A stretch of 35,937 nt of DNA from a virus (taxonomy: Duplodnaviria; Heunggongvirae; Uroviricota; Caudoviricetes), in IMG/VR virus record IMGVR_UViG_2778261229_000003, positions 1 through 35,937 of that record. One strand, 5' to 3'. Below the pieces are notes generated by a model. The model had not been told where the DNA came from. It saw only the letters and a list, made by a program, of their open reading frames with translations, and searched no databases. Position 1 is the stretch's first letter. Each line of letters starts with the position of its first letter. Both the position numbers and the translations under genes were made by a program. Below are positions 484 through 35,364 of this stretch, in pieces.

Positions 484-1284
484 TTAAGCGGCGTCGGTGA
501 ATTCAAATAAAAAACCGGCTTGCGCCGGCTCTCTCATCTTTCTGTCTACCCATGCTGATATCGATGGCGGGTGCACCTTTTCAATAGCAGCGCGAAGTAC
601 AGCTGTGCGTGCCAGTTTGTCGGTAATCTCAGGAAATCGCTTCTCTGTCTTCGGTACGTTAACAGCAACATTAGTAGAATCCGCACTGGCGAACGGATAC
701 ATACCAAGAACTCTCACGTCGAGCATTCGAAGACCATGAATTTTCACTTTCAAATTACGATTGATATAAAGCTCAGTGAAAACTTCATCCATTCTCTGTT
801 CCCACCATTTAGAGCGTATGTGCCTGTGTGGTCCGCAGCATCCAATCGCCACCCATTCAAATTTGCTAGAAAGGCGTAAAAGACGTTCAATTGATTCGTC
901 GGTATGCCAGACCGGAACCGCTTTTGATTTTAGCCAATCAGGAACCAACTCAATCTGCTCGTCGTTTTCTGCCTCTGTCCCTTCGATAACGTCAGGTATA
1001 AGAAACCATTCAATTCTGCTGAACCACTTCCCAACAAAGTCGTAGAATTTTGCTCGTCTCTTACTCCAGTCTACCGGAGTGCCTTTCTTTAATGCTTTCA
1101 TCCAGTCGCTAAAAGCACCGTTATCAAGGCGTATATCACAAGGGAACATGGCAATCTTTTTCATCTGCTCTGGTCTGGCAAATGAAACAAAAGCCCCACC
1201 ATCACGGTAAAGGGCTTTAATCAGCATATCTGTAGGGGCATGCTCATCCCCCCATATTGGGCTGCCGTGAAAGTGGATGGTCAT
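484..1284 (-). CDS. Hypothetical 266-aa ea-region protein; possible TGT-fold (DpdA-like) enzyme
   Basis: Long ORF, last gene of the leftward operon before xis; motif order LDNGAF ... HTDES ... AIGCCG ... SADST resembles the catalytic loops of tRNA-guanine transglycosylase family (from memory, not searched). Confidence 0.5.
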   Translation of the reverse strand: MTIHFHGSPIWGDEHAPTDMLIKALYRDGGAFVSFARPEQMKKIAMFPCDIRLDNGAFSDWMKALKKGTPVDWSKRRAKFYDFVGKWFSRIEWFLIPDVIEGTEAENDEQIELVPDWLKSKAVPVWHTDESIERLLRLSSKFEWVAIGCCGPHRHIRSKWWEQRMDEVFTELYINRNLKVKIHGLRMLDVRVLGMYPFASADSTNVAVNVPKTEKRFPEITDKLARTAVLRAAIEKVHPPSISAWVDRKMREPAQAGFLFEFTDAA

Positions 1285-7471: not shown

Positions 7472-8440
7472 TTAGTAGGTTATTTTTGTTGCGAATACTT
7501 CGCCTTTTACGATGGCTGTTATGATATTTTTAGCAACATCTTCTGATGCGCCAACCTTGATAAGGTCAGCAAGTATTTTGTTATTTACTTCTTTCCGGTG
7601 AGCTTTATCCTTTGCTCTACGCTCTTCTTCGTCCTTGATTCTTTTTTCTTCTGCTATTCTGGCTTGCTCTTTTGCTTCAGCCTCGCGCCGGATTCGTTCT
7701 GCCTCCTCCTGTGCTTTACGGCGTTCTGCTTCAATTGCCGCATGCTTTTCTCTTTCAGTTCGTTCTGCTGCCTCTTTTGCTTCGCGCTGTGCTCGTTGCT
7801 CGGCTTCAATGCGTTCACGCTCTGCACGTTCCGCTGCGGCCTTAGCTTCTGCTTCTCGCCTTGCTGCTGCTTCAATTTCGGCTTTTGCCTTTGCTTCGGC
7901 TTCTGCTCTGGCTTTCTCTTCAGCTTCTCTTTTTAAGCGTTCTTCATGCTCTCGCTTTTCCTGCTCCGCTTTGAGTCTTTCCTCTTCTCTTTGGCGGTCA
8001 AATTCGCGATCCATCAAAATCGCTATTTCATGGTCAGACTCAATTTGCTTTGCGAGAGCTTCAGCTGCTGCCTTAGCTTCTTCTTCGGCTTTAATCCGCG
8101 CCTGTTCTTCCTCATAATCAGTAAGAGGCTGGCGCGCCTTGGCTTTCAGTTCATCAAGGCGATCGCGCACTGTCTTGCGGTTGGCATCAATTAGCTTTGG
8201 AATTTCCTTAAGTTCAGCAACAAGGTCTTTGCCAAGACCATCGAGATATGTTTTCGTCTGCGCAACTTTATACGCCAGAGAAGCGATCTCCTTTCTGCCC
8301 TTTGCCGTTGTGATATCAGGCACAAAGGACATAACTTCACGTTCAACCTTTTGAAGGATTTCTTCAATCTGGTCGGCAGACTGAAATACAGTCATTGCAT
8401 TTGCTTTTTCAATAACAACTAAATCTGTTACTTCACTCAT
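7472..8440 (-). CDS. ER/K-rich charged-repeat protein (predicted single alpha-helix / coiled coil), unknown function
   Basis: Track ORF 7472-8494; start refined to ATG 8440 (MSEVTDLV) with GGAGG RBS; central ~170 aa of A/E/K/R repeats (EAEAKAKAEIEAAARREAEAK...). Confidence 0.6.
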   Translation of the reverse strand: MSEVTDLVVIEKANAMTVFQSADQIEEILQKVEREVMSFVPDITTAKGRKEIASLAYKVAQTKTYLDGLGKDLVAELKEIPKLIDANRKTVRDRLDELKAKARQPLTDYEEEQARIKAEEEAKAAAEALAKQIESDHEIAILMDREFDRQREEERLKAEQEKREHEERLKREAEEKARAEAEAKAKAEIEAAARREAEAKAAAERAERERIEAEQRAQREAKEAAERTEREKHAAIEAERRKAQEEAERIRREAEAKEQARIAEEKRIKDEEERRAKDKAHRKEVNNKILADLIKVGASEDVAKNIITAIVKGEVFATKITY

Positions 8441-8452
8441 ATATCCTCCGTT

Positions 8453-8479
8453 AAAAAAATCGCCCTCACATTGGAGGGC
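8453..8479 (-). terminator. tL1-like rho-independent terminator (minus strand)
   Basis: Minus-strand hairpin GCCCTC-CAATGT-GAGGGC followed by GATTTTTTT, immediately upstream of the RBS of the ER/K-rich gene. Confidence 0.5.
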
Positions 8480-8541
8480 AAAGAAGATTTCCAATAATCA
8501 GAACAAGTCGGCTCCTGTTTAGTTACGAGCGACATTGCTCC

Positions 8542-8569
8542 GTGTATTCACTCGTTGGAATGAATACAC
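8542..8569. repeat. Perfect 9-bp inverted repeat with 10-nt spacer
   Basis: gtgtattca-ctcgttggaa-tgaatacac in the intergenic region between the membrane-protein gene and the ER/K-rich gene. Confidence 0.6.
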
Positions 8570-8596
8570 AGTGCAGTATTTATTCTGTTGTTTATG

Positions 8597-8624
8597 CTAA
8601 AAATAAAGGCCTACTATGCGGCCT
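8597..8624 (-). terminator. Rho-independent terminator (minus strand) after the membrane-protein gene
   Basis: Minus-strand hairpin AGGCC-GCATAGTA-GGCCT followed by TTTATTTTTAG, 5 nt after the stop at 8629. Confidence 0.45.
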
Positions 8625-8628
8625 GAAA

Positions 8629-9078
8629 TTACTTAACCAATGATGCTGCATATTCGATAAGGTAAAGCTTTGGGGCCAGCCAAATTTTTAACCAAGTCAT
8701 ATTGGTTACTACACCAATAATAAAAATCCCCCACAGAGTCAAAACTCCAACCAATGGCATGATAAGAAGATTAATATCACCTTTGCTATCCCAAACCATT
8801 GTCGGCCTGTATTTGGCATTTCCTTTCTCCCATGAATATCCTTCATCACCGATTTTACCTGTCTCAACTCTTTGGCACTGCTTCTTCATAAACCAGAAAA
8901 CTAGTGGGATTGTTAGAATGGCCATTAATGTTTTAATCAGACTGTCAACCATATTCCATAGCAGCAACTGATGAACAACATCAGGAATCTGTGCCTGGCT
9001 AAATGAAACAGCCGCGTCTATTCCATTGCTGGCTTTTTGCAGTAGTTCTACGAGAATCTTGTTTGCTTGTTCTTCCAT
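8629..9078 (-). CDS. Membrane protein at the SieB position (candidate superinfection exclusion)
   Basis: 149-aa ORF with 2-3 predicted hydrophobic helices (LMAILTIPLVFWFM; LLIMPLVGVLTLWGIFIIGVV); directly downstream of N and upstream of terminators. Confidence 0.4.
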   Translation of the reverse strand: MEEQANKILVELLQKASNGIDAAVSFSQAQIPDVVHQLLLWNMVDSLIKTLMAILTIPLVFWFMKKQCQRVETGKIGDEGYSWEKGNAKYRPTMVWDSKGDINLLIMPLVGVLTLWGIFIIGVVTNMTWLKIWLAPKLYLIEYAASLVK

Positions 9079-9086
9079 ATATCACC

Positions 9087-9413
9087 TCAAATAAGTGGTT
9101 TGCTGCCTAATTTCATTTTCTGGCGCCCAACACAAGTCACACCCATTTCGCTGCGTGGCTTGCTGTACCATGTGCGCTGATTCTTTCGCTGAATACGTTG
9201 CAGGTTGCTTTCAATCTGTTCGTGGTATTCAGCCAGCACTGTAAGGTCTATTGGATTCAGTGCGCTTTCTACTCGTGATTTCGGTTTGCGATTCAGCGAG
9301 AGAATAGGGCGGTTAACTGGTTTTGCGCTTACCCCAACCAACAGTGGATTTGCTGCTTTCCATTGAGCCTGTTTCTCTGCGCGACGTTCGCGGCGGCGTG
9401 TTTGTGCATCCAT
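9087..9413 (-). CDS. N: Antitermination protein N
   Basis: Start refined to MDAQTRRRERRAEKQAQWKAANPLLVG... which matches lambda N nearly residue-for-residue (from memory); arginine-rich boxB-binding motif. Confidence 0.9.
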   Translation of the reverse strand: MDAQTRRRERRAEKQAQWKAANPLLVGVSAKPVNRPILSLNRKPKSRVESALNPIDLTVLAEYHEQIESNLQRIQRKNQRTWYSKPRSEMGVTCVGRQKMKLGSKPLI

Positions 9414-9571: not shown

Positions 9572-9602
9572 GCCCTTCTTCAGGGCTTAATTTTTAAGAG
9601 CA
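9572..9602 (-). promoter_or_regulatory. nutL: nutL (boxA + boxB)
   Basis: Minus strand reads GCTCTTAAAAATTAAGCCCTGAAGAAGGGC, i.e. boxA-like GCTCTTA and boxB hairpin GCCCTGAAGAAGGGC identical to lambda nutL. Confidence 0.85.
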
Positions 9603-9635: not shown

Positions 9636-9726
9636 GGCTTAAAATATACCTACAGGTAAAAGTGTTGTCTATACCTGCAGGTAAATAAAATTGGTGTCAG
9701 AGTTTACCTGTTTGAATTTTCAGGTA
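9636..9726 (-). promoter_or_regulatory. pL promoter with oL operators
   Basis: Leader ATCAGCAGGACGCACT as in lambda pL transcript; operators tacctacaggta (9647-9658), tacctgcaggta (9672-9683) and TACCTG-N10-CAGGTA (9705-9726); candidate -10 TATATT. Confidence 0.6.
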
Positions 9727-9744: not shown

Positions 9745-9770
9745 TATAAAAAAGCCCGCTTTGCGGGCTG
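9745..9770 (-). terminator. Rho-independent terminator of the cI operon (minus strand)
   Basis: Minus-strand hairpin AGCCCGC-AAA-GCGGGCT followed by TTTTTTATAT, 11 nt after the stop at 9781. Confidence 0.6.
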
Positions 9771-9780
9771 AAAGGAGATG

Positions 9781-10077
9781 TCAGAAGCTATTTGGATTGC
9801 TTGGCCATTGCGGCAATTTTGATTCTACCGGGGTGTGTTTGGGTTTGAGTCCGTTTAAGTAGTCAAGACGCTCAATGGCGCATTTATACATAGCAATCTG
9901 ATCTGATGACATGTCGTCATATGACATGCCTTTGAACTTCTTAATTATCGTTTCTGCCTCATGTATAAGATGCTTCTTCTTCATGAGTTCAGCTGTATGC
10001 TTAGAGCTTACAGGAGATAACTTTGCCCATATGAAGCAGATGATTACAACAGCGACCACTATACCTGGTATAAACAT
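9781..10077 (-). CDS. Small single-pass membrane protein co-transcribed with cI (rex-position moron)
   Basis: Track ORF 9781-10095 (TTG); first ATG at 10077 gives MFIPGIVVAVVIICFIWAKL (N-terminal TM helix) + ~75-aa soluble domain; GAGGA overlaps cI stop. Confidence 0.5.
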   Translation of the reverse strand: MFIPGIVVAVVIICFIWAKLSPVSSKHTAELMKKKHLIHEAETIIKKFKGMSYDDMSSDQIAMYKCAIERLDYLNGLKPKHTPVESKLPQWPSNPNSF

Positions 10078-10091
10078 TTGCTGCTTTATCC

Positions 10092-10778
10092 TCAAAATTT
10101 TGGCAGATCGTCCTGGTCTACGTACCTAGTGTGTTTCACAATAGCTGAAACAAAATGCATTTTATCAACTTCTTCAACAGGAAGAGTGATTGGACGGTGA
10201 TCGCTGTTTATACTACTAAACTGATAGTCTCCGTCTCTTGTTTTGTTCATGATCTTTATCATGTTATGACCATCTTTGGTCCTTACAAAGACTTCATCAC
10301 CTGGATGTACTGGCGTATTTGGTTCAATAACAACATATTCTCCTGACTGAATCCTTGGCCACATGCTGTCACCCTTAACCTTCAGACCGTAAGCATCTTT
10401 ATCGCCACTGTAGATGCTTAACCAACCGGATCTGAATTCAATCATATCCACTGAGCCATCAACTCCCAAAACGGCTTCACCAATTACCGGAACAAAACCC
10501 GCACGAACGTTACCCGCAAACTCAAGATGGTCTGCAGATCCAACTTTGCTATCTGCAAGCATGTCCATCCATCCGCGTGGGAGATTAAAAGATTTTTCAA
10601 TTAGTTCCATCATATCGTCAGCAATGCGTTTTTTTCCGCTTTTTCCTTCCGGATACAGCATTCTGGAAACGTATGATGGTTCCCTTTCTATTCGACGAGC
10701 CAACTCTGAGGCCTTTCCATTACAGAATCGGTCTCTTATCTCTATCAGCCTTAGTCGTCTTTGTTCGTATTTATCCAT
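10092..10778 (-). CDS. cI: CI-type repressor (HTH + S24 LexA-like peptidase domain)
   Basis: 228-aa ORF; C-terminal domain with AG cleavage-site candidate (VRAGFVP), catalytic Ser in GDSMWP and downstream Lys; divergent from cro across an operator region. Confidence 0.85.
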   Translation of the reverse strand: MDKYEQRRLRLIEIRDRFCNGKASELARRIEREPSYVSRMLYPEGKSGKKRIADDMMELIEKSFNLPRGWMDMLADSKVGSADHLEFAGNVRAGFVPVIGEAVLGVDGSVDMIEFRSGWLSIYSGDKDAYGLKVKGDSMWPRIQSGEYVVIEPNTPVHPGDEVFVRTKDGHNMIKIMNKTRDGDYQFSSINSDHRPITLPVEEVDKMHFVSAIVKHTRYVDQDDLPKF

Positions 10779-17910: not shown

Positions 17911-18234
17911 ATGAAGATGCCAGAAAAACATGACCTGTTAGCCGCCATTCTCGCGGCAAAGGAACAAGGCATCGGGGCAATCCTTGCGTTTGCAATGGCG
18001 TACCTTCGCGGCAGATATAATGGCGGTGCGTTTACAAAAACAGTAATCGACGCAACGATGTGCGCCATTATCGCCTGGTTCATTCGTGACCTTCTCGACT
18101 TCGCCGGACTAAGTAGCAACCTCGCTTATATAACGAGCGTGTTCATCGGCTACATCGGTACTGACTCGATTGGTTCGCTTATCAAACGCTTCGCTGCTAA
18201 AAAAGCCGGAGTAGAAGATGGTGGAAATCAATAA
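17911..18234 (+). CDS. S: Holin/antiholin S (class I, dual-start MKM)
   Basis: 107-aa [37 protein letters not shown]... matching lambda S from memory; three TM segments. Confidence 0.9.
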
Positions 18235-18694
18235 TCAACGTAAGGCGTTCCTCGATATGCTGGCGTGGTCAGAGGGAACAGATAACGGACGACAGAAAAC
18301 CAGAAATCATGGTTATGACGTCATTGTTGGTGGAGAGCTATTCACTGATTACTCCGATCACCCTCGCAAACTTGTCACGCTAAACCCAAAACTCAAATCA
18401 ACAGCAGCCGGACGTTACCAGCTTCTTTCCCGTTGGTGGGATGCCTACCGTAAGCAGCTTGGCCTGAAAGATTTCTCTCCGAAAAGCCAGGACGCTGTGG
18501 CATTGCAGCAGATTAAGGAACGTGGCGCTTTGCCGATGATTGATCGCGGTGATATCCGTCAGGCAATCGACCGTTGCAGCAATATCTGGGCTTCACTGCC
18601 GGGCGCTGGTTATGGTCAGTTCGAGCATAAGGCTGACAGCCTGATTGCAAAATTCAAAGAGGCTGGCGGAACGGTCAGAGAGATTGAGGTATGA
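18218..18694 (+). CDS. R: Endolysin R (lytic transglycosylase)
   Basis: 158-aa [38 protein letters not shown]... matching lambda R from memory; overlaps S end. Confidence 0.9.
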
Positions 18695-19158
18695 ACAGAG
18701 TCACCGCGATTATCTCCGCTCTGGTTATCTGCATCATCGTCTGCCTGTCATGGGCTGTTAATCATTACCGTGATAACGCCATGACCTACAAAGAGCAGCG
18801 CGATAAAAAAGTCAGTGAGCTGAAGCAGGCGACTGCCACCATTACTGACATGCAGCAGCGCCAGCGTACTGCTGATGCACTAGATGCTAAATACACGAAG
18901 GAGTTAGCTGATGCGAAAGCTGAAAATGATGCTCTTCGGCGCAAGCTTGATAATGGTGGCAGGGTGCTCGTCAAAGGAAAATGCCCTGTGCCAGCCTCAA
19001 CCGAAACCTCCCGCGCCTCCGGCATGGGCAATGATGCCACCGTCGAACTCTCTCCAGTTGCTGGACGAAACGTTCTCGGTGTCCGGGACGGAATCATCAG
19101 AGACCAGACAGCACTGAGAACGCTTCAGGAATACATCAGGACGCAATGCCTTCGATGA
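18691..19158 (+). CDS. Rz: Inner-membrane spanin Rz
   Basis: 155-aa ORF with N-terminal TM helix [20 protein letters not shown] and coiled-coil; ATGA-overlaps R. Confidence 0.85.
18911..19117 (+). CDS. Rz1: Outer-membrane lipoprotein spanin Rz1 (embedded in Rz, +1 frame)
   Basis: 68-aa ORF inside Rz with lipobox MVAGC and proline-rich segment [11 protein letters not shown]. Confidence 0.8.
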
Positions 19159-34468: not shown

Positions 34469-34954
34469 TTATCTGATGCTACTGCTACTGTTGCATGTTA
34501 CCGTGTTTCTAAATCCTGAATTGCAGTTTGTGTAAGTGTCAACTCGTGTTGGATAGGGTTGAGTTATAACAGGCTGTCTCGCTTTTTGCTCGATCGCTTG
34601 CATTGTGTTTACAGCCTGATAATTCAATAAAGCCTGCTGGAATGCTTGGCTTTGTGCTATTTGTTGGGCTTGTTCTTGGCTTTGTAATTGAACATAAAGA
34701 TTCTGAAGCTCAAGTCTTGCCTGTGCGTCACTTATCTTGCCTTCATCGACACTTTGCCCGAGCATCTTTGCAGCAAGGACATACAGCTTAGGTGTTGGTG
34801 CTGATGCCATGCGTGAGTCGTTCTTCACACTGGCATCAAGGCAATTAGCCATATCGCTAAGCTTTTGATAGCGTTGTTCGCAACTTGCTTGATAGTCACT
34901 TACTTTTGCGCACCCAACCAGCAGAAGCGGGATAATTAACAGTGATTTTTTCAT
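34469..34954 (-). CDS. Predicted lipoprotein (moron; candidate exclusion/lysogenic-conversion protein)
   Basis: Start refined to MKKSLLIIPLLLVGCAKV (signal peptide + lipobox LVGC), AAGGAG RBS; Gln-rich middle region; same strand as and 70 nt downstream of mnt. Confidence 0.6.
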   Translation of the reverse strand: MKKSLLIIPLLLVGCAKVSDYQASCEQRYQKLSDMANCLDASVKNDSRMASAPTPKLYVLAAKMLGQSVDEGKISDAQARLELQNLYVQLQSQEQAQQIAQSQAFQQALLNYQAVNTMQAIEQKARQPVITQPYPTRVDTYTNCNSGFRNTVTCNSSSSIR

Positions 34955-35024
34955 ATGGTTAACTCTCCTTAGTTTTTCACAGGATATCATGAAGGCAATG
35001 CCATTTTAGCCGGAAACTAGATTT

Positions 35025-35291
35025 CTATGTTCCCTTTTTATTATTGCTATACATGGTCTTAAGCGTTTCAAAAACCATTTTCTTAACCATATCAGATTGT
35101 TGTTCTGCTATACGCTCTGCATCGTCAATGTAAACTGATGCAGAGCTTTGTTTAGCCAATGATTCTTCAATCGCTGCAATTATCTCTGAGTTCAGCGACC
35201 TGTTATTCATCTTCGCGCGCTGTTTAATTTTCGCGTGAAGTTCATGCGGAAGTCTCAAGTGAAACTGCGCCTCGTCGTATTTACTGTACAT
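35025..35291 (-). CDS. mnt: Mnt-like ribbon-helix-helix repressor
   Basis: Start refined to MYSKYDEAQFHLRLPHELHAKIKQRAKMNNRSLNSEIIAAIEESL...; RHH N-terminus and C-terminal DDAERIAEQQSDMVKKMVFETLK resemble P22 Mnt. Confidence 0.7.
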   Translation of the reverse strand: MYSKYDEAQFHLRLPHELHAKIKQRAKMNNRSLNSEIIAAIEESLAKQSSASVYIDDAERIAEQQSDMVKKMVFETLKTMYSNNKKGT

Positions 35292-35364
35292 CCTTGATGC
35301 CTCACCAGTTGGGTGGAATGGCATCGTAACCTACTGGATAAATACTCAATAGTACCATTTCGAT

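What the first reader, a model, noticed from the sequence alone, without database searches (positions are those of the whole stretch)
8629..9078. Membrane protein between N and the tL1-like terminators (SieB position)
A 149-aa protein with 2-3 hydrophobic helices lies immediately after N and is bracketed by two minus-strand terminators (8597-8624 and 8453-8479) before the rest of the pL operon. In lambda and P22 this neighbourhood encodes sieB (superinfection exclusion). Its position means it could be expressed without N-dependent antitermination. I could not confirm similarity to SieB, so it may be a different exclusion or abortive-infection protein.
Basis: partly seen in the sequence, partly recalled or inferred. 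Interest (0 to 1): 0.55.

Follow-up and report, generated by a model that had tools for sequence, protein, structure and literature searches.

The report
Uncharacterised phage membrane protein after N

Summary
The 149-aa ORF at 8629-9078 (-) is a real gene under purifying selection (pN/pS 0.25). It matches PHROG 3054 (E 2e-63, function unknown). A profile search finds 5,166 clusters, all 125-180 aa among the 150 listed, in temperate and virulent phages of Gamma- and Betaproteobacteria. It is not SieB: no Pfam hit at E<=10, while lambda SieB scores 9e-30 on PF14163, and the profile-profile probability is 0.15%. sieB lies on the opposite strand with its own promoter and can co-occur with this gene. 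ORF149 starts 8 nt after the N stop codon, so it should be read from pL with N. Both hairpins lie downstream of it; they do not bracket it. The protein has an invariant acidic N-terminal segment, a variable two-helix membrane hairpin and an invariant Trp-rich C-terminal helix. The charge distribution predicts both ends in the periplasm. Enterobacterial phages carry three unrelated central alleles (149, 140 and 121 aa) between nearly identical DNA ends. No partner gene is conserved, and the gene's position varies among phages. Function is unknown. My best guess (0.3) is an early-expressed protein that interferes at the membrane with rival phage entry. Counter-defence (0.2) cannot be separated from this by sequence.

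The parts
9643..9671 (-). pL-like sigma-70 promoter (TAGACA-17-TATATT, 10 of 12 matches), the presumed source of the N-ORF149 transcript
   Evidence: It lies upstream of a lambda-type nutL and N. Its function is inferred, not shown.
9572..9586 (-). nutL boxB hairpin (GCCCTGAAGAAGGGC on the minus strand)
   Evidence: Read directly from the sequence. The scan flags its complement as a hairpin. Identification as lambda nutL boxB rests on my own knowledge of the lambda sequence.
9087..9413 (-). Antiterminator N, lambda type, 108 aa
   Evidence: Pfam N36 E 1.8e-26. About 96% DNA identity to lambda N.
9079..9092 (-). N stop codon, GAGGTGAT ribosome-binding site and 8-nt spacer: the 5' junction of the gene cassette
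   Evidence: The same about 17 nt (ATTTGAGGTGATATATG or CAAGGTGATATATG) precede the gene behind different upstream genes in 80 related loci.
8629..9078 (-). ORF149: small inner-membrane protein of PHROG 3054, function unknown
8956..9078 (-). Residues 1-41: invariant acidic N-terminal helical segment (family motif G-I-D...F.QAE(I/L)PDV(I/V)xQLLxW), predicted periplasmic
   Evidence: Alignments A1 and A2. pN/pS 0.10. Positive-inside analysis.
8707..8943 (-). Residues 46-124: TM1 (46-64), basic 41-residue loop (65-105) and TM2 (106-124). This is the variable, allele-defining centre.
   Evidence: Hydropathy. AlphaFold2 helices 2-68 and 106-125. The centre cannot be aligned with Sf6 gene 34 or sal5 ORF38. 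Three discrete alleles. TM2 pN/pS 0.87.
8632..8706 (-). Residues 125-149: invariant Trp-rich amphipathic C-terminal helix (WLKIWLAPKLYLIEYAASLVK)
   Evidence: Invariant I132, P136, K137, E142 and Y143. pN/pS 0.08.
8597..8624 (-). Hairpin plus T-run directly after the stop codon; a terminator-like 3' end of the cassette and a candidate tL1 analogue
   Evidence: dG -9.0, z -2.5. It travels with the gene in relatives as AGGCCGCATAGTCGGCCTTTATTTTT. Termination is inferred.
8482..8596 (-). Conserved spacer with a 9-bp inverted repeat (GTGTATTCA...TGAATACAC); equivalent to the Sf6 boundary sequence bsq4 and to lambda around 33.9 kb
8453..8481 (-). Second, stronger intrinsic terminator, homologous to the site annotated tL2A in Sf6
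   Evidence: dG -12.9. Sf6 annotation. Match to lambda 33911 onward.

Best explanation
Shown: ORF149 is a genuine phage gene for a ~17-kDa protein with two predicted membrane-spanning helices. It belongs to a very large family of unknown function (PHROG 3054; Sf6 gene 34 is a member). It is not SieB or SieA.

Inferred from layout: it is transcribed and translated together with N from the repressor-controlled pL promoter. It would therefore appear in the first minutes after infection or induction, before N acts, and would be silent in the lysogen. The transcript would end at the gene's own hairpin or at the tL2a-like terminator.

Inferred from charge distribution: the protein inserts with the basic loop in the cytoplasm. 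The invariant acidic N-terminal segment and the invariant Trp-rich C-terminal helix would lie together on the periplasmic face of the inner membrane.

Proposed mechanism (speculative): these two invariant helices next to the membrane form the working surface. From there the protein interferes with a competitor at the membrane, most likely genome entry by a second phage into an already infected cell. This would resemble T4 Imm or P22 SieA, but with lytic-cycle timing. The exchangeable membrane hairpin alleles would set specificity or simply anchor the protein.
For: Real gene and family.

Co-transcription with N: 8-nt spacing, a ribosome-binding site over the N stop codon, and no terminator-like or promoter-like site between pL and the ORF. 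In 80 close loci every recognisable upstream gene, such as N or ral, is co-oriented with it.

Membrane topology: two TM segments in 101 of 111 family members. K+R within 15 residues is 0.56 before TM1 and 3.47 after it. The N-tail carries 5.6 acidic against 2.0 basic residues on average.

Modular build: the ends are invariant across the family, with pN/pS 0.08-0.10 against 0.87 in TM2. Three unrelated central alleles sit between DNA ends that are 97-100% identical in E. coli, Shigella and Salmonella phages. Conserved ends around a swapped centre are reminiscent of genes that set specificity in conflicts between competitors (inference).

Early or independent expression elsewhere: the gene lies in early or middle regions of N4-like and phi92-like virulent phages. 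In Pseudomonas prophages it is a lone opposite-strand gene with a bidirectional terminator between terL and portal.

Background: the N-to-cIII slot of lambdoid phages collects conflict genes such as ral, sieB and P22 gene 17. Characterised small phage inner-membrane proteins outside lysis are mostly exclusion proteins, for example SieA (PMC10883804).
Against: There is no functional evidence of any kind. No homology links the family to any exclusion, defence or anti-defence family: Pfam, NCBIfam and PADLOC give zero hits at E<=10, the PDB profile search gives nothing, and fold searches are uninformative.

The family is shared by phages with very different injection machines, including P22-like, N4-like, phi92-like and siphoviruses. 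That is awkward for a specific block on DNA injection.

In Pantoea prophages and E. coli phage-plasmids the same subtype lies after the lysis cassette, which is late-gene territory. Early timing is therefore not universal.

The topology is a prediction, and the AlphaFold2 model is only moderate (pLDDT 70.7, pTM 0.43).
Confidence: 0.3

Rival explanations
1. Counter-defence or host take-over: an early membrane protein that neutralises a membrane-acting host or prophage defence, such as an Abi pore, or otherwise conditions the inner membrane for phage growth. This would parallel other pL genes (ral, gam/abc, kil, cIII) and P22 gene 17, which occupies the same slot.
For: It is co-oriented with the pL operon, which carries anti-host genes. 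P22 gene 17 ('allows growth on Fels-2 lysogen') is the last gene before the equivalent terminator. The family is kept in virulent phages, in regions that also carry RNA polymerase, dUTPase or thymidylate synthase genes. Allelic diversification fits an arms race.
Against: It is not homologous to gp17 or to any other known protein. The target is unknown. The late-operon position in some phages is wrong for a function that must act early.
Confidence: 0.2
2. Lysis-related accessory protein, such as an antiholin, a lysis-timing factor or an envelope factor acting at the inner membrane.
For: It is a small protein with two predicted membrane helices. In Pantoea stewartii prophages a 61%-identical homologue directly follows holin, lysozyme and the spanins, with its start overlapping the LysC gene. 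It sits between lysis genes and terS in E. coli phage-plasmids. Lysozyme, Rz, peptidase M15 or holin families appear among the two upstream genes in a minority of 68 dereplicated loci.
Against: The window already has a complete holin, endolysin and Rz cassette at 17911-19158. Here the gene is immediate-early, about 9 kb away on the other arm. About 10% of upstream neighbours being lysis genes is roughly what random placement would give (my estimate). Holins are too diverse to explain invariant ends. It lacks the charged cytoplasmic tail typical of holins (my own knowledge).
Confidence: 0.12
3. One reading: a prophage-expressed, SieB-like exclusion or abortive-infection protein that protects the lysogen.
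For: It lies in the neighbourhood where lambda and P22 carry sieB. It is a membrane protein. In Pseudomonas prophages the homologue is a stand-alone opposite-strand unit with its own terminator, the layout of an independently expressed accessory gene ('moron').
Against: It is not SieB by Pfam or by profile-profile comparison. It co-occurs with sieB. It is co-oriented with N and tightly coupled to it behind repressor-controlled pL, and no promoter-like site lies upstream or travels with the cassette. The family is also present in strictly virulent phages. PADLOC gives no hit.
Confidence: 0.08
4. A chance ORF or a decaying remnant with no function.
For: None, beyond the absence of annotation.
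Against: pN/pS is 0.25 overall and 0.08-0.10 at the ends. There are thousands of full-length relatives of the same size. The ribosome-binding site and the terminator are conserved with the gene.
Confidence: 0.01

Closest known systems
Shigella phage Sf6 gene 34 protein, the CUS-3, HK633 and SPN9CC 'hypothetical proteins', and HF4s 'TM helix-containing protein' (PHROG 3054)
   Same: Same family. HF4s, Gally and Stx2a-phage copies are near-identical. Sf6 gp34 shares residues 1-39 and the last 21 residues almost exactly, with the same ribosome-binding site and hairpin, and also lies in the pL operon before tL2A.
   Different: Sf6, CUS-3 (140 aa) and SPN9CC, HK633 (121 aa) carry unrelated central membrane hairpins. 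In Sf6 the gene follows ral rather than N. None has a known function.
SieB of lambda and P22 (Pfam PF14163): prophage-expressed abortive-infection membrane protein
   Same: A small protein with hydrophobic helices, encoded between N/24 and the rest of the pL operon in lambdoid phages.
   Different: No sequence or profile similarity. sieB is on the opposite strand with its own promoter. SieB has its hydrophobic segments near the N-terminus and a long C-terminal domain, the reverse of ORF149. The two genes co-occur.
[quoted passage not shown]
   Same: A small inner-membrane protein without an enzymatic domain, encoded by a P22-like phage. It is a model for how such a protein could exclude rivals.
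   Different: SieA has three predicted TM helices, is expressed from the prophage, and lies next to gene 16 and mnt (PMC10883804). hhalign probability is 0.7%.
T4 Imm: early lytic-cycle superinfection immunity protein
   Same: A small membrane protein made early in a lytic infection. This is the closest analogy for the proposed timing. The comparison rests on my own knowledge of T4; I did not compare the sequences directly.
   Different: The whole-Pfam scan returned nothing at E<=10. Whether that Pfam copy holds an Imm model was not checked, so this is only indirect. Imm is restricted to T4-like phages, whereas this family spans many phage types.
P22 gene 17 protein ('allows growth on Fels-2 lysogen')
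   Same: It occupies the equivalent position: the last pL gene before the terminator that precedes c3 and kil.
   Different: It is an acidic 103-aa protein with no evident hydrophobic helices and no relation to this family.

Membership tests
SieB (Pfam PF14163) | Match to the SieB profile | tested here: not met
   hmmscan against Pfam-A gives 0 families at E<=10. Lambda SieB in the same tool gives PF14163 at E 9.2e-30. BLASTP finds only a 19-residue hydrophobic stretch, E 0.2. hhalign of the family profile A2 against the SieB profile A5 gives probability 0.15%.
SieB (Pfam PF14163) | Encoded antisense to pL with its own promoter, allowing expression in the lysogen | tested here: not met
   sieB is on the opposite strand to N in lambda and P22, where its promoter and RNA start are annotated. 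ORF149 is on the N strand, 8 nt after N, with no promoter-like site upstream.
SieB (Pfam PF14163) | Hydrophobic segments near the N-terminus followed by a long C-terminal domain | tested here: not met
   Lambda SieB sequence compared with ORF149, which has a 45-residue N-terminal segment, a TM hairpin and a 25-residue tail.
SieB (Pfam PF14163) | Aborts lytic growth of superinfecting phages | not testable with these tools
   Needs plating and macromolecular-synthesis assays.
PHROG 3054 (unnamed family; includes Sf6 gene 34) | Full-length match to the family profile | tested here: met
   E 2e-63, residues 1-149 on profile positions 1-137 of 137.
PHROG 3054 (unnamed family; includes Sf6 gene 34) | Invariant N-terminal motif (PDV.xQLLxW) and C-terminal motif (IWxAPK...EY) flanking two TM helices | tested here: met
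   P32, W41, I132, P136, K137, E142 and Y143 are invariant in 111 sequences with ORF149 as the reference. Two TM segments in 101 of 111.
P22 SieA-type injection blockers | Sequence or profile similarity to SieA | tested here: not met
   hhalign probability 0.74%.
P22 SieA-type injection blockers | Blocks DNA entry while adsorption stays normal | not testable with these tools
   Needs K+ efflux and DNA-entry assays as in PMC10883804.
Known anti-phage defence proteins (PADLOC-DB v2) | Match to any defence-system model | tested here: not met
   0 families at E<=10.
Holins and antiholins (Pfam Phage_holin families) | Match to a holin profile, or position inside the phage's lysis cassette | tested here: not met
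   No Pfam hit. The window's own cassette is at 17911-19158. Some homologues elsewhere do lie next to lysis genes.

The most novel reading that the evidence does not exclude
PHROG 3054 would be a previously unrecognised family of modular inner-membrane conflict proteins, found across phages of Proteobacteria. An invariant pair of helices next to the membrane, on the periplasmic face, would act as the effector. An exchangeable membrane-hairpin cassette would set specificity. Both virulent and temperate phages would use it from the first minutes of infection to shut out rival phages or to disarm membrane-acting defences.
Probability: 0.3. Interest if true: 0.7.

Novelty: new variant of a known kind. 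Interest (0 to 1): 0.42.

Why it matters
If the family acts in phage-phage or phage-host conflict, it would give a function to thousands of 'hypothetical' phage genes. These include genes in Stx-converting prophages, in P22-like prophages of E. coli, Shigella and Salmonella, and in N4-like and phi92-like virulent phages. It would also supply a small, modular membrane protein with natural specificity alleles that could be swapped in experiments. If the gene instead turns out to be a housekeeping membrane factor, the result still corrects the tempting 'SieB-position' annotation. It also shows that a more plausible lysogen-expressed accessory gene in this window lies elsewhere, just after cI.

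Tried and rejected
- **SieB homology:** rejected by Pfam with a positive control, by BLASTP and by hhalign.
- **SieA and P22 gp17 homology:** rejected.
- **Other libraries:** NCBIfam and PADLOC gave no hits. A PDB sequence-profile search gave only a spurious receptor hit at E 4.6.
- **Rfam:** nothing over the whole window.
- **Partner genes:** I looked for a conserved partner in 68 dereplicated loci. No neighbour family occurs in more than 5 loci.
- **Surface-modification link:** glycosyltransferase-, sialyltransferase- and PagP-like genes lie downstream in three hand-inspected prophages. This did not hold up in the larger set.
- **Lysis association:** its frequency is about what chance placement would give (my estimate).
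- **Tandem paralogues:** none found.
- **Own promoter:** none detected in the window, in Pantoea, or in a phage-plasmid.
- **Literature:** searches for the PHROG number, for Sf6 gp34, and for pL-operon membrane or superinfection proteins found nothing on this family.

Full report
**1. The observation**

The ORF at 8629-9078 (minus strand, 149 aa, ATG start) exists exactly as described. Directly upstream is a lambda-type N gene at 9087-9413 (Pfam N36, E 1.8e-26). N is preceded by a lambda-like nutL and by a pL-like promoter at 9671-9643. The ORF's ATG lies 8 nt after the N stop codon, and a GAGG ribosome-binding site overlaps that stop.

The first has its stem at 8624-8607 (dG -9.0 kcal/mol). 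The second has its stem at 8481-8460 (dG -12.9 kcal/mol). Both are downstream of the ORF on its own strand. The ORF is therefore followed by two terminators, not bracketed by them. The second corresponds to the site annotated tL2A in Sf6 and matches lambda from 33911 onward.

The window is a P22-like (Lederbergvirus) E. coli prophage closest to CUS-3, Kapi1, HF4s and Sf6.

**2. The gene is real**

- Across 57 distinct DNA alleles of the 149-aa type, pN/pS is 0.25.
- The protein matches PHROG 3054 ('unknown function') over its full length at E 2e-63.
- It has 516 relatives in the 5.8-billion-protein collection. All of the 120 listed ones that carry a name are called 'hypothetical', and none has a Pfam domain.
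- A profile built on 111 diverse members finds 5,166 clusters (50% identity) at E<=1e-3 and 2,379 at E<=1e-10. The 150 listed are all stand-alone proteins of 125-180 aa.
- Pfam, NCBIfam and PADLOC return nothing even at E<=10.

**3. It is not SieB**

Lambda SieB scores 9.2e-30 on PF14163 in the same tool that gives ORF149 no hit. BLASTP between the two finds only a 19-residue hydrophobic stretch. A profile-profile comparison of the family against a ten-sequence SieB alignment gives probability 0.15%.

The genomic logic also differs. In lambda and P22, sieB lies on the strand opposite to N/24 and has its own promoter. ORF149 is co-oriented with N and tightly packed behind it.

The two genes are not alternatives either. 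IMG/VR locus L072 carries N, a sieB identical to lambda's on the opposite strand, ral, and then ORF149. Salmonella phage 103203_sal5 carries an N-like gene, sieB on the opposite strand, and then a 121-aa family member.

P22 SieA and P22 gp17 are likewise unrelated. gp17 is the gene that occupies the equivalent slot in P22.

**4. Anatomy of the protein**

Family alignments show an unusual pattern. The first ~41 residues and the last ~22 residues are nearly invariant from E. coli phages to Vibrio and Pseudomonas phages.
- N-terminal consensus: MNEQLQ..GID..V.F.QAE(I/L)PDV(I/V)xQLLxW.
- C-terminal consensus: WLQIWIAPKIWLIEYAAxLVK.
- Invariant residues: P32, W41, I132, P136, K137, E142 and Y143.

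The ~80-100 residues between these ends vary freely in sequence and length. Even so, 101 of 111 members have two hydrophobic helices there.

AlphaFold2 gives an all-helical model of moderate confidence (pLDDT 70.7, pTM 0.43). It has one long helix over residues 2-68, a small beta loop, and helices at 106-125 and 128-148.

Basic residues crowd just after TM1: 3.47 K+R within 15 residues, against 0.56 just before it. The N-terminal tail is acidic, with 5.6 D+E against 2.0 K+R on average. By the positive-inside rule, the loop should be cytoplasmic and both invariant ends should lie on the periplasmic face of the inner membrane. This is a prediction, not a measurement.

**5. A gene cassette with allelic centres**

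At the DNA level, the window gene, Sf6 gene 34 and ORF38 of Salmonella phage 103203_sal5 share two nearly identical ends (97-100%). The 5' end covers ~125 nt including the ribosome-binding site. The 3' end covers ~90 nt including the hairpin. Their centres cannot be aligned.

I scanned IMG/VR for the exact 5' 35-mer and clustered the encoded proteins. This gives three discrete types: 149 aa (117 loci), 121 aa (21 loci) and 140 aa (16 loci).

Within the 149-aa type, constraint is strongest at the ends (pN/pS 0.10 and 0.08) and weakest in TM2 (0.87).

In 80 close relatives the unit made of ribosome-binding site, ORF and hairpin (AGGCCGCATAGTCGGCCTTTATTTTT) is preserved. Only ~17 nt upstream of the ATG are shared, so no promoter travels with it.

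Of those 80 loci, 48 had a callable upstream ORF. That ORF is ral in 15, N of several types in 14, and other small ORFs in the rest, always co-oriented. N-independent expression is therefore a feature of this window, not of the family.

**6. Distribution and context**

- **Temperate lambdoid phages:** Sf6, CUS-3, HK633, N7, SPN9CC, HK639, Oslo and Stx2a phages.
- **Virulent phages:**
  - N4-like Shigella phage B2, where the gene lies between the RNA polymerase subunit genes and the dUTPase gene.
  - Vibrio phage 1.245.O, where it lies next to the thymidylate synthase gene.
  - phi92-like Justusliebigvirus phages.
  - Pseudomonas and Rheinheimera phages.
- **Prophages:** in Enterobacterales, Pseudomonas and Alcaligenaceae.
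- **Phage-plasmids:** 46-kb E. coli plasmids, where it lies between lysis genes and terS.
- **Pantoea stewartii:** a 61%-identical copy directly follows holin, lysozyme and the spanins, and is followed by a strong terminator.
- **Pseudomonas prophages:** either after the head-completion gene, or as a lone opposite-strand gene with a bidirectional terminator between terL and portal.

Across 68 dereplicated loci, no neighbouring family recurs in more than 5 loci. The gene is thus a solitary accessory gene with no conserved partner. It is usually packed into whatever operon it lands in, and several of the copies examined are followed by an intrinsic-terminator-like hairpin.

**7. Interpretation**

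Firm conclusions:
- It is a real gene in a very large, uncharacterised phage family.
- It encodes a small protein with two predicted membrane-spanning helices.
- It is not SieB or SieA.
- By layout it belongs to the pL early transcript with N, which would make it immediate-early and silent in the lysogen.

The function is unknown. I favour an interference function at the membrane, exercised from the start of lytic development. My leading candidate (0.3) is exclusion of a second phage's genome. Neutralising a membrane-acting defence (0.2) is close behind. The reasons:
- The lambdoid slot it occupies collects conflict genes such as ral, sieB and P22 gene 17.
- Its ends are invariant while its centre is swapped between discrete alleles, a pattern reminiscent of specificity genes.
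- Virulent phages keep it in regions that also carry RNA polymerase and nucleotide-metabolism genes.
- In Pseudomonas prophages it is an independent transcription unit.
- Characterised small phage inner-membrane proteins outside lysis are mostly exclusion proteins (SieA, PMC10883804; T4 Imm from my own knowledge).

Against this reading:
- There are no functional data and no homology to any known conflict protein.
- The family spans phages with unrelated injection machines.
- Some copies sit in late operons.

The remainder of the probability is 'something else'.

**8. Verdict**

The 'SieB-like' label should be dropped. What is worth keeping is the family's size, the absence of any annotation, and its striking modular, allelic architecture. 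Together these make it a cheap and well-defined target for exclusion and anti-defence assays.

Noticed in passing
window 9781-10095 (-), with terminator 9753-9769 (-): A 104-aa ORF with an N-terminal hydrophobic helix overlaps the stop of the cI repressor gene (10092-10778) and is followed by a strong terminator (dG -12.6, z -3.4). This is the rexAB position downstream of cI in lambda (my own knowledge), so it is likely read from pRM in the lysogen. It matches PHROG 10450 (unknown function) and has no Pfam hit. It is a better candidate than ORF149 for a prophage-expressed exclusion or defence gene.
   Followed up: partly
window 34469-34990 (-): A 173-aa ORF lies on the opposite strand just after the gene 16-like ORF and next to a Mnt/Arc-like gene (35025-35324). 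This is the position of sieA in P22. It matches PHROG 6067 (unknown function) and shows no BLASTP similarity to P22 SieA.
   Followed up: partly
window 8482-8596 (-): The ~115-nt spacer between the two terminators contains a perfect 9-bp inverted repeat (GTGTATTCA-10 nt-TGAATACAC). The surrounding query region matched 335 phage records. In lambda and Sf6 the match runs into this stretch (lambda from 33911; Sf6 boundary sequence bsq4). No Rfam family matches. Whether it is a structured RNA or only a recombination boundary is unknown.
   Followed up: partly
L003 (Sf6), L172 (103203_sal5) and IMG/VR loci L174-L247, compared with window 8629-9078: Three discrete central alleles of the gene (149, 140 and 121 aa) sit between DNA ends that are 97-100% identical, in E. 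coli, Shigella and Salmonella phages. The same allele crosses host genera; for example the 121-aa type occurs in Salmonella SPN9CC and in E. coli HK633 and N7.
   Followed up: yes
L102 6001-6498 and L162 3678-4040: In Pseudomonas-type prophages the homologue is the only plus-strand gene between terL and portal, both on the minus strand. A bidirectional terminator (GCCCGCTGACGCGGGC) follows it. This is the layout of an independently transcribed accessory gene.
   Followed up: partly
window 7472-8440 (-): The gene after the tL2a-like terminator encodes a 322-aa charged coiled-coil protein rich in E, K, A and R. RefSeq calls such genes 'TolA', the HF4s record calls it 'antitoxin/Agt-like', and it equals Sf6 gp33. 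It has no Pfam hit, and its PHROGs (1376, 21365) have unknown function.
   Followed up: no
window 484-1284 (-): A 266-aa ORF matches PHROG 887 (queuine tRNA-ribosyltransferase-like, 'moron/host takeover' category). It could be a DpdA-type 7-deazaguanine DNA-modification gene (my own knowledge).
   Followed up: no
L005 4473-5462 (Shigella phage B2 gp84): The gene downstream of the family member in this N4-like phage encodes collagen triple-helix repeats plus a YadA-like outer-membrane anchor domain. That is unusual for a gene in this part of a virulent phage genome.
   Followed up: no
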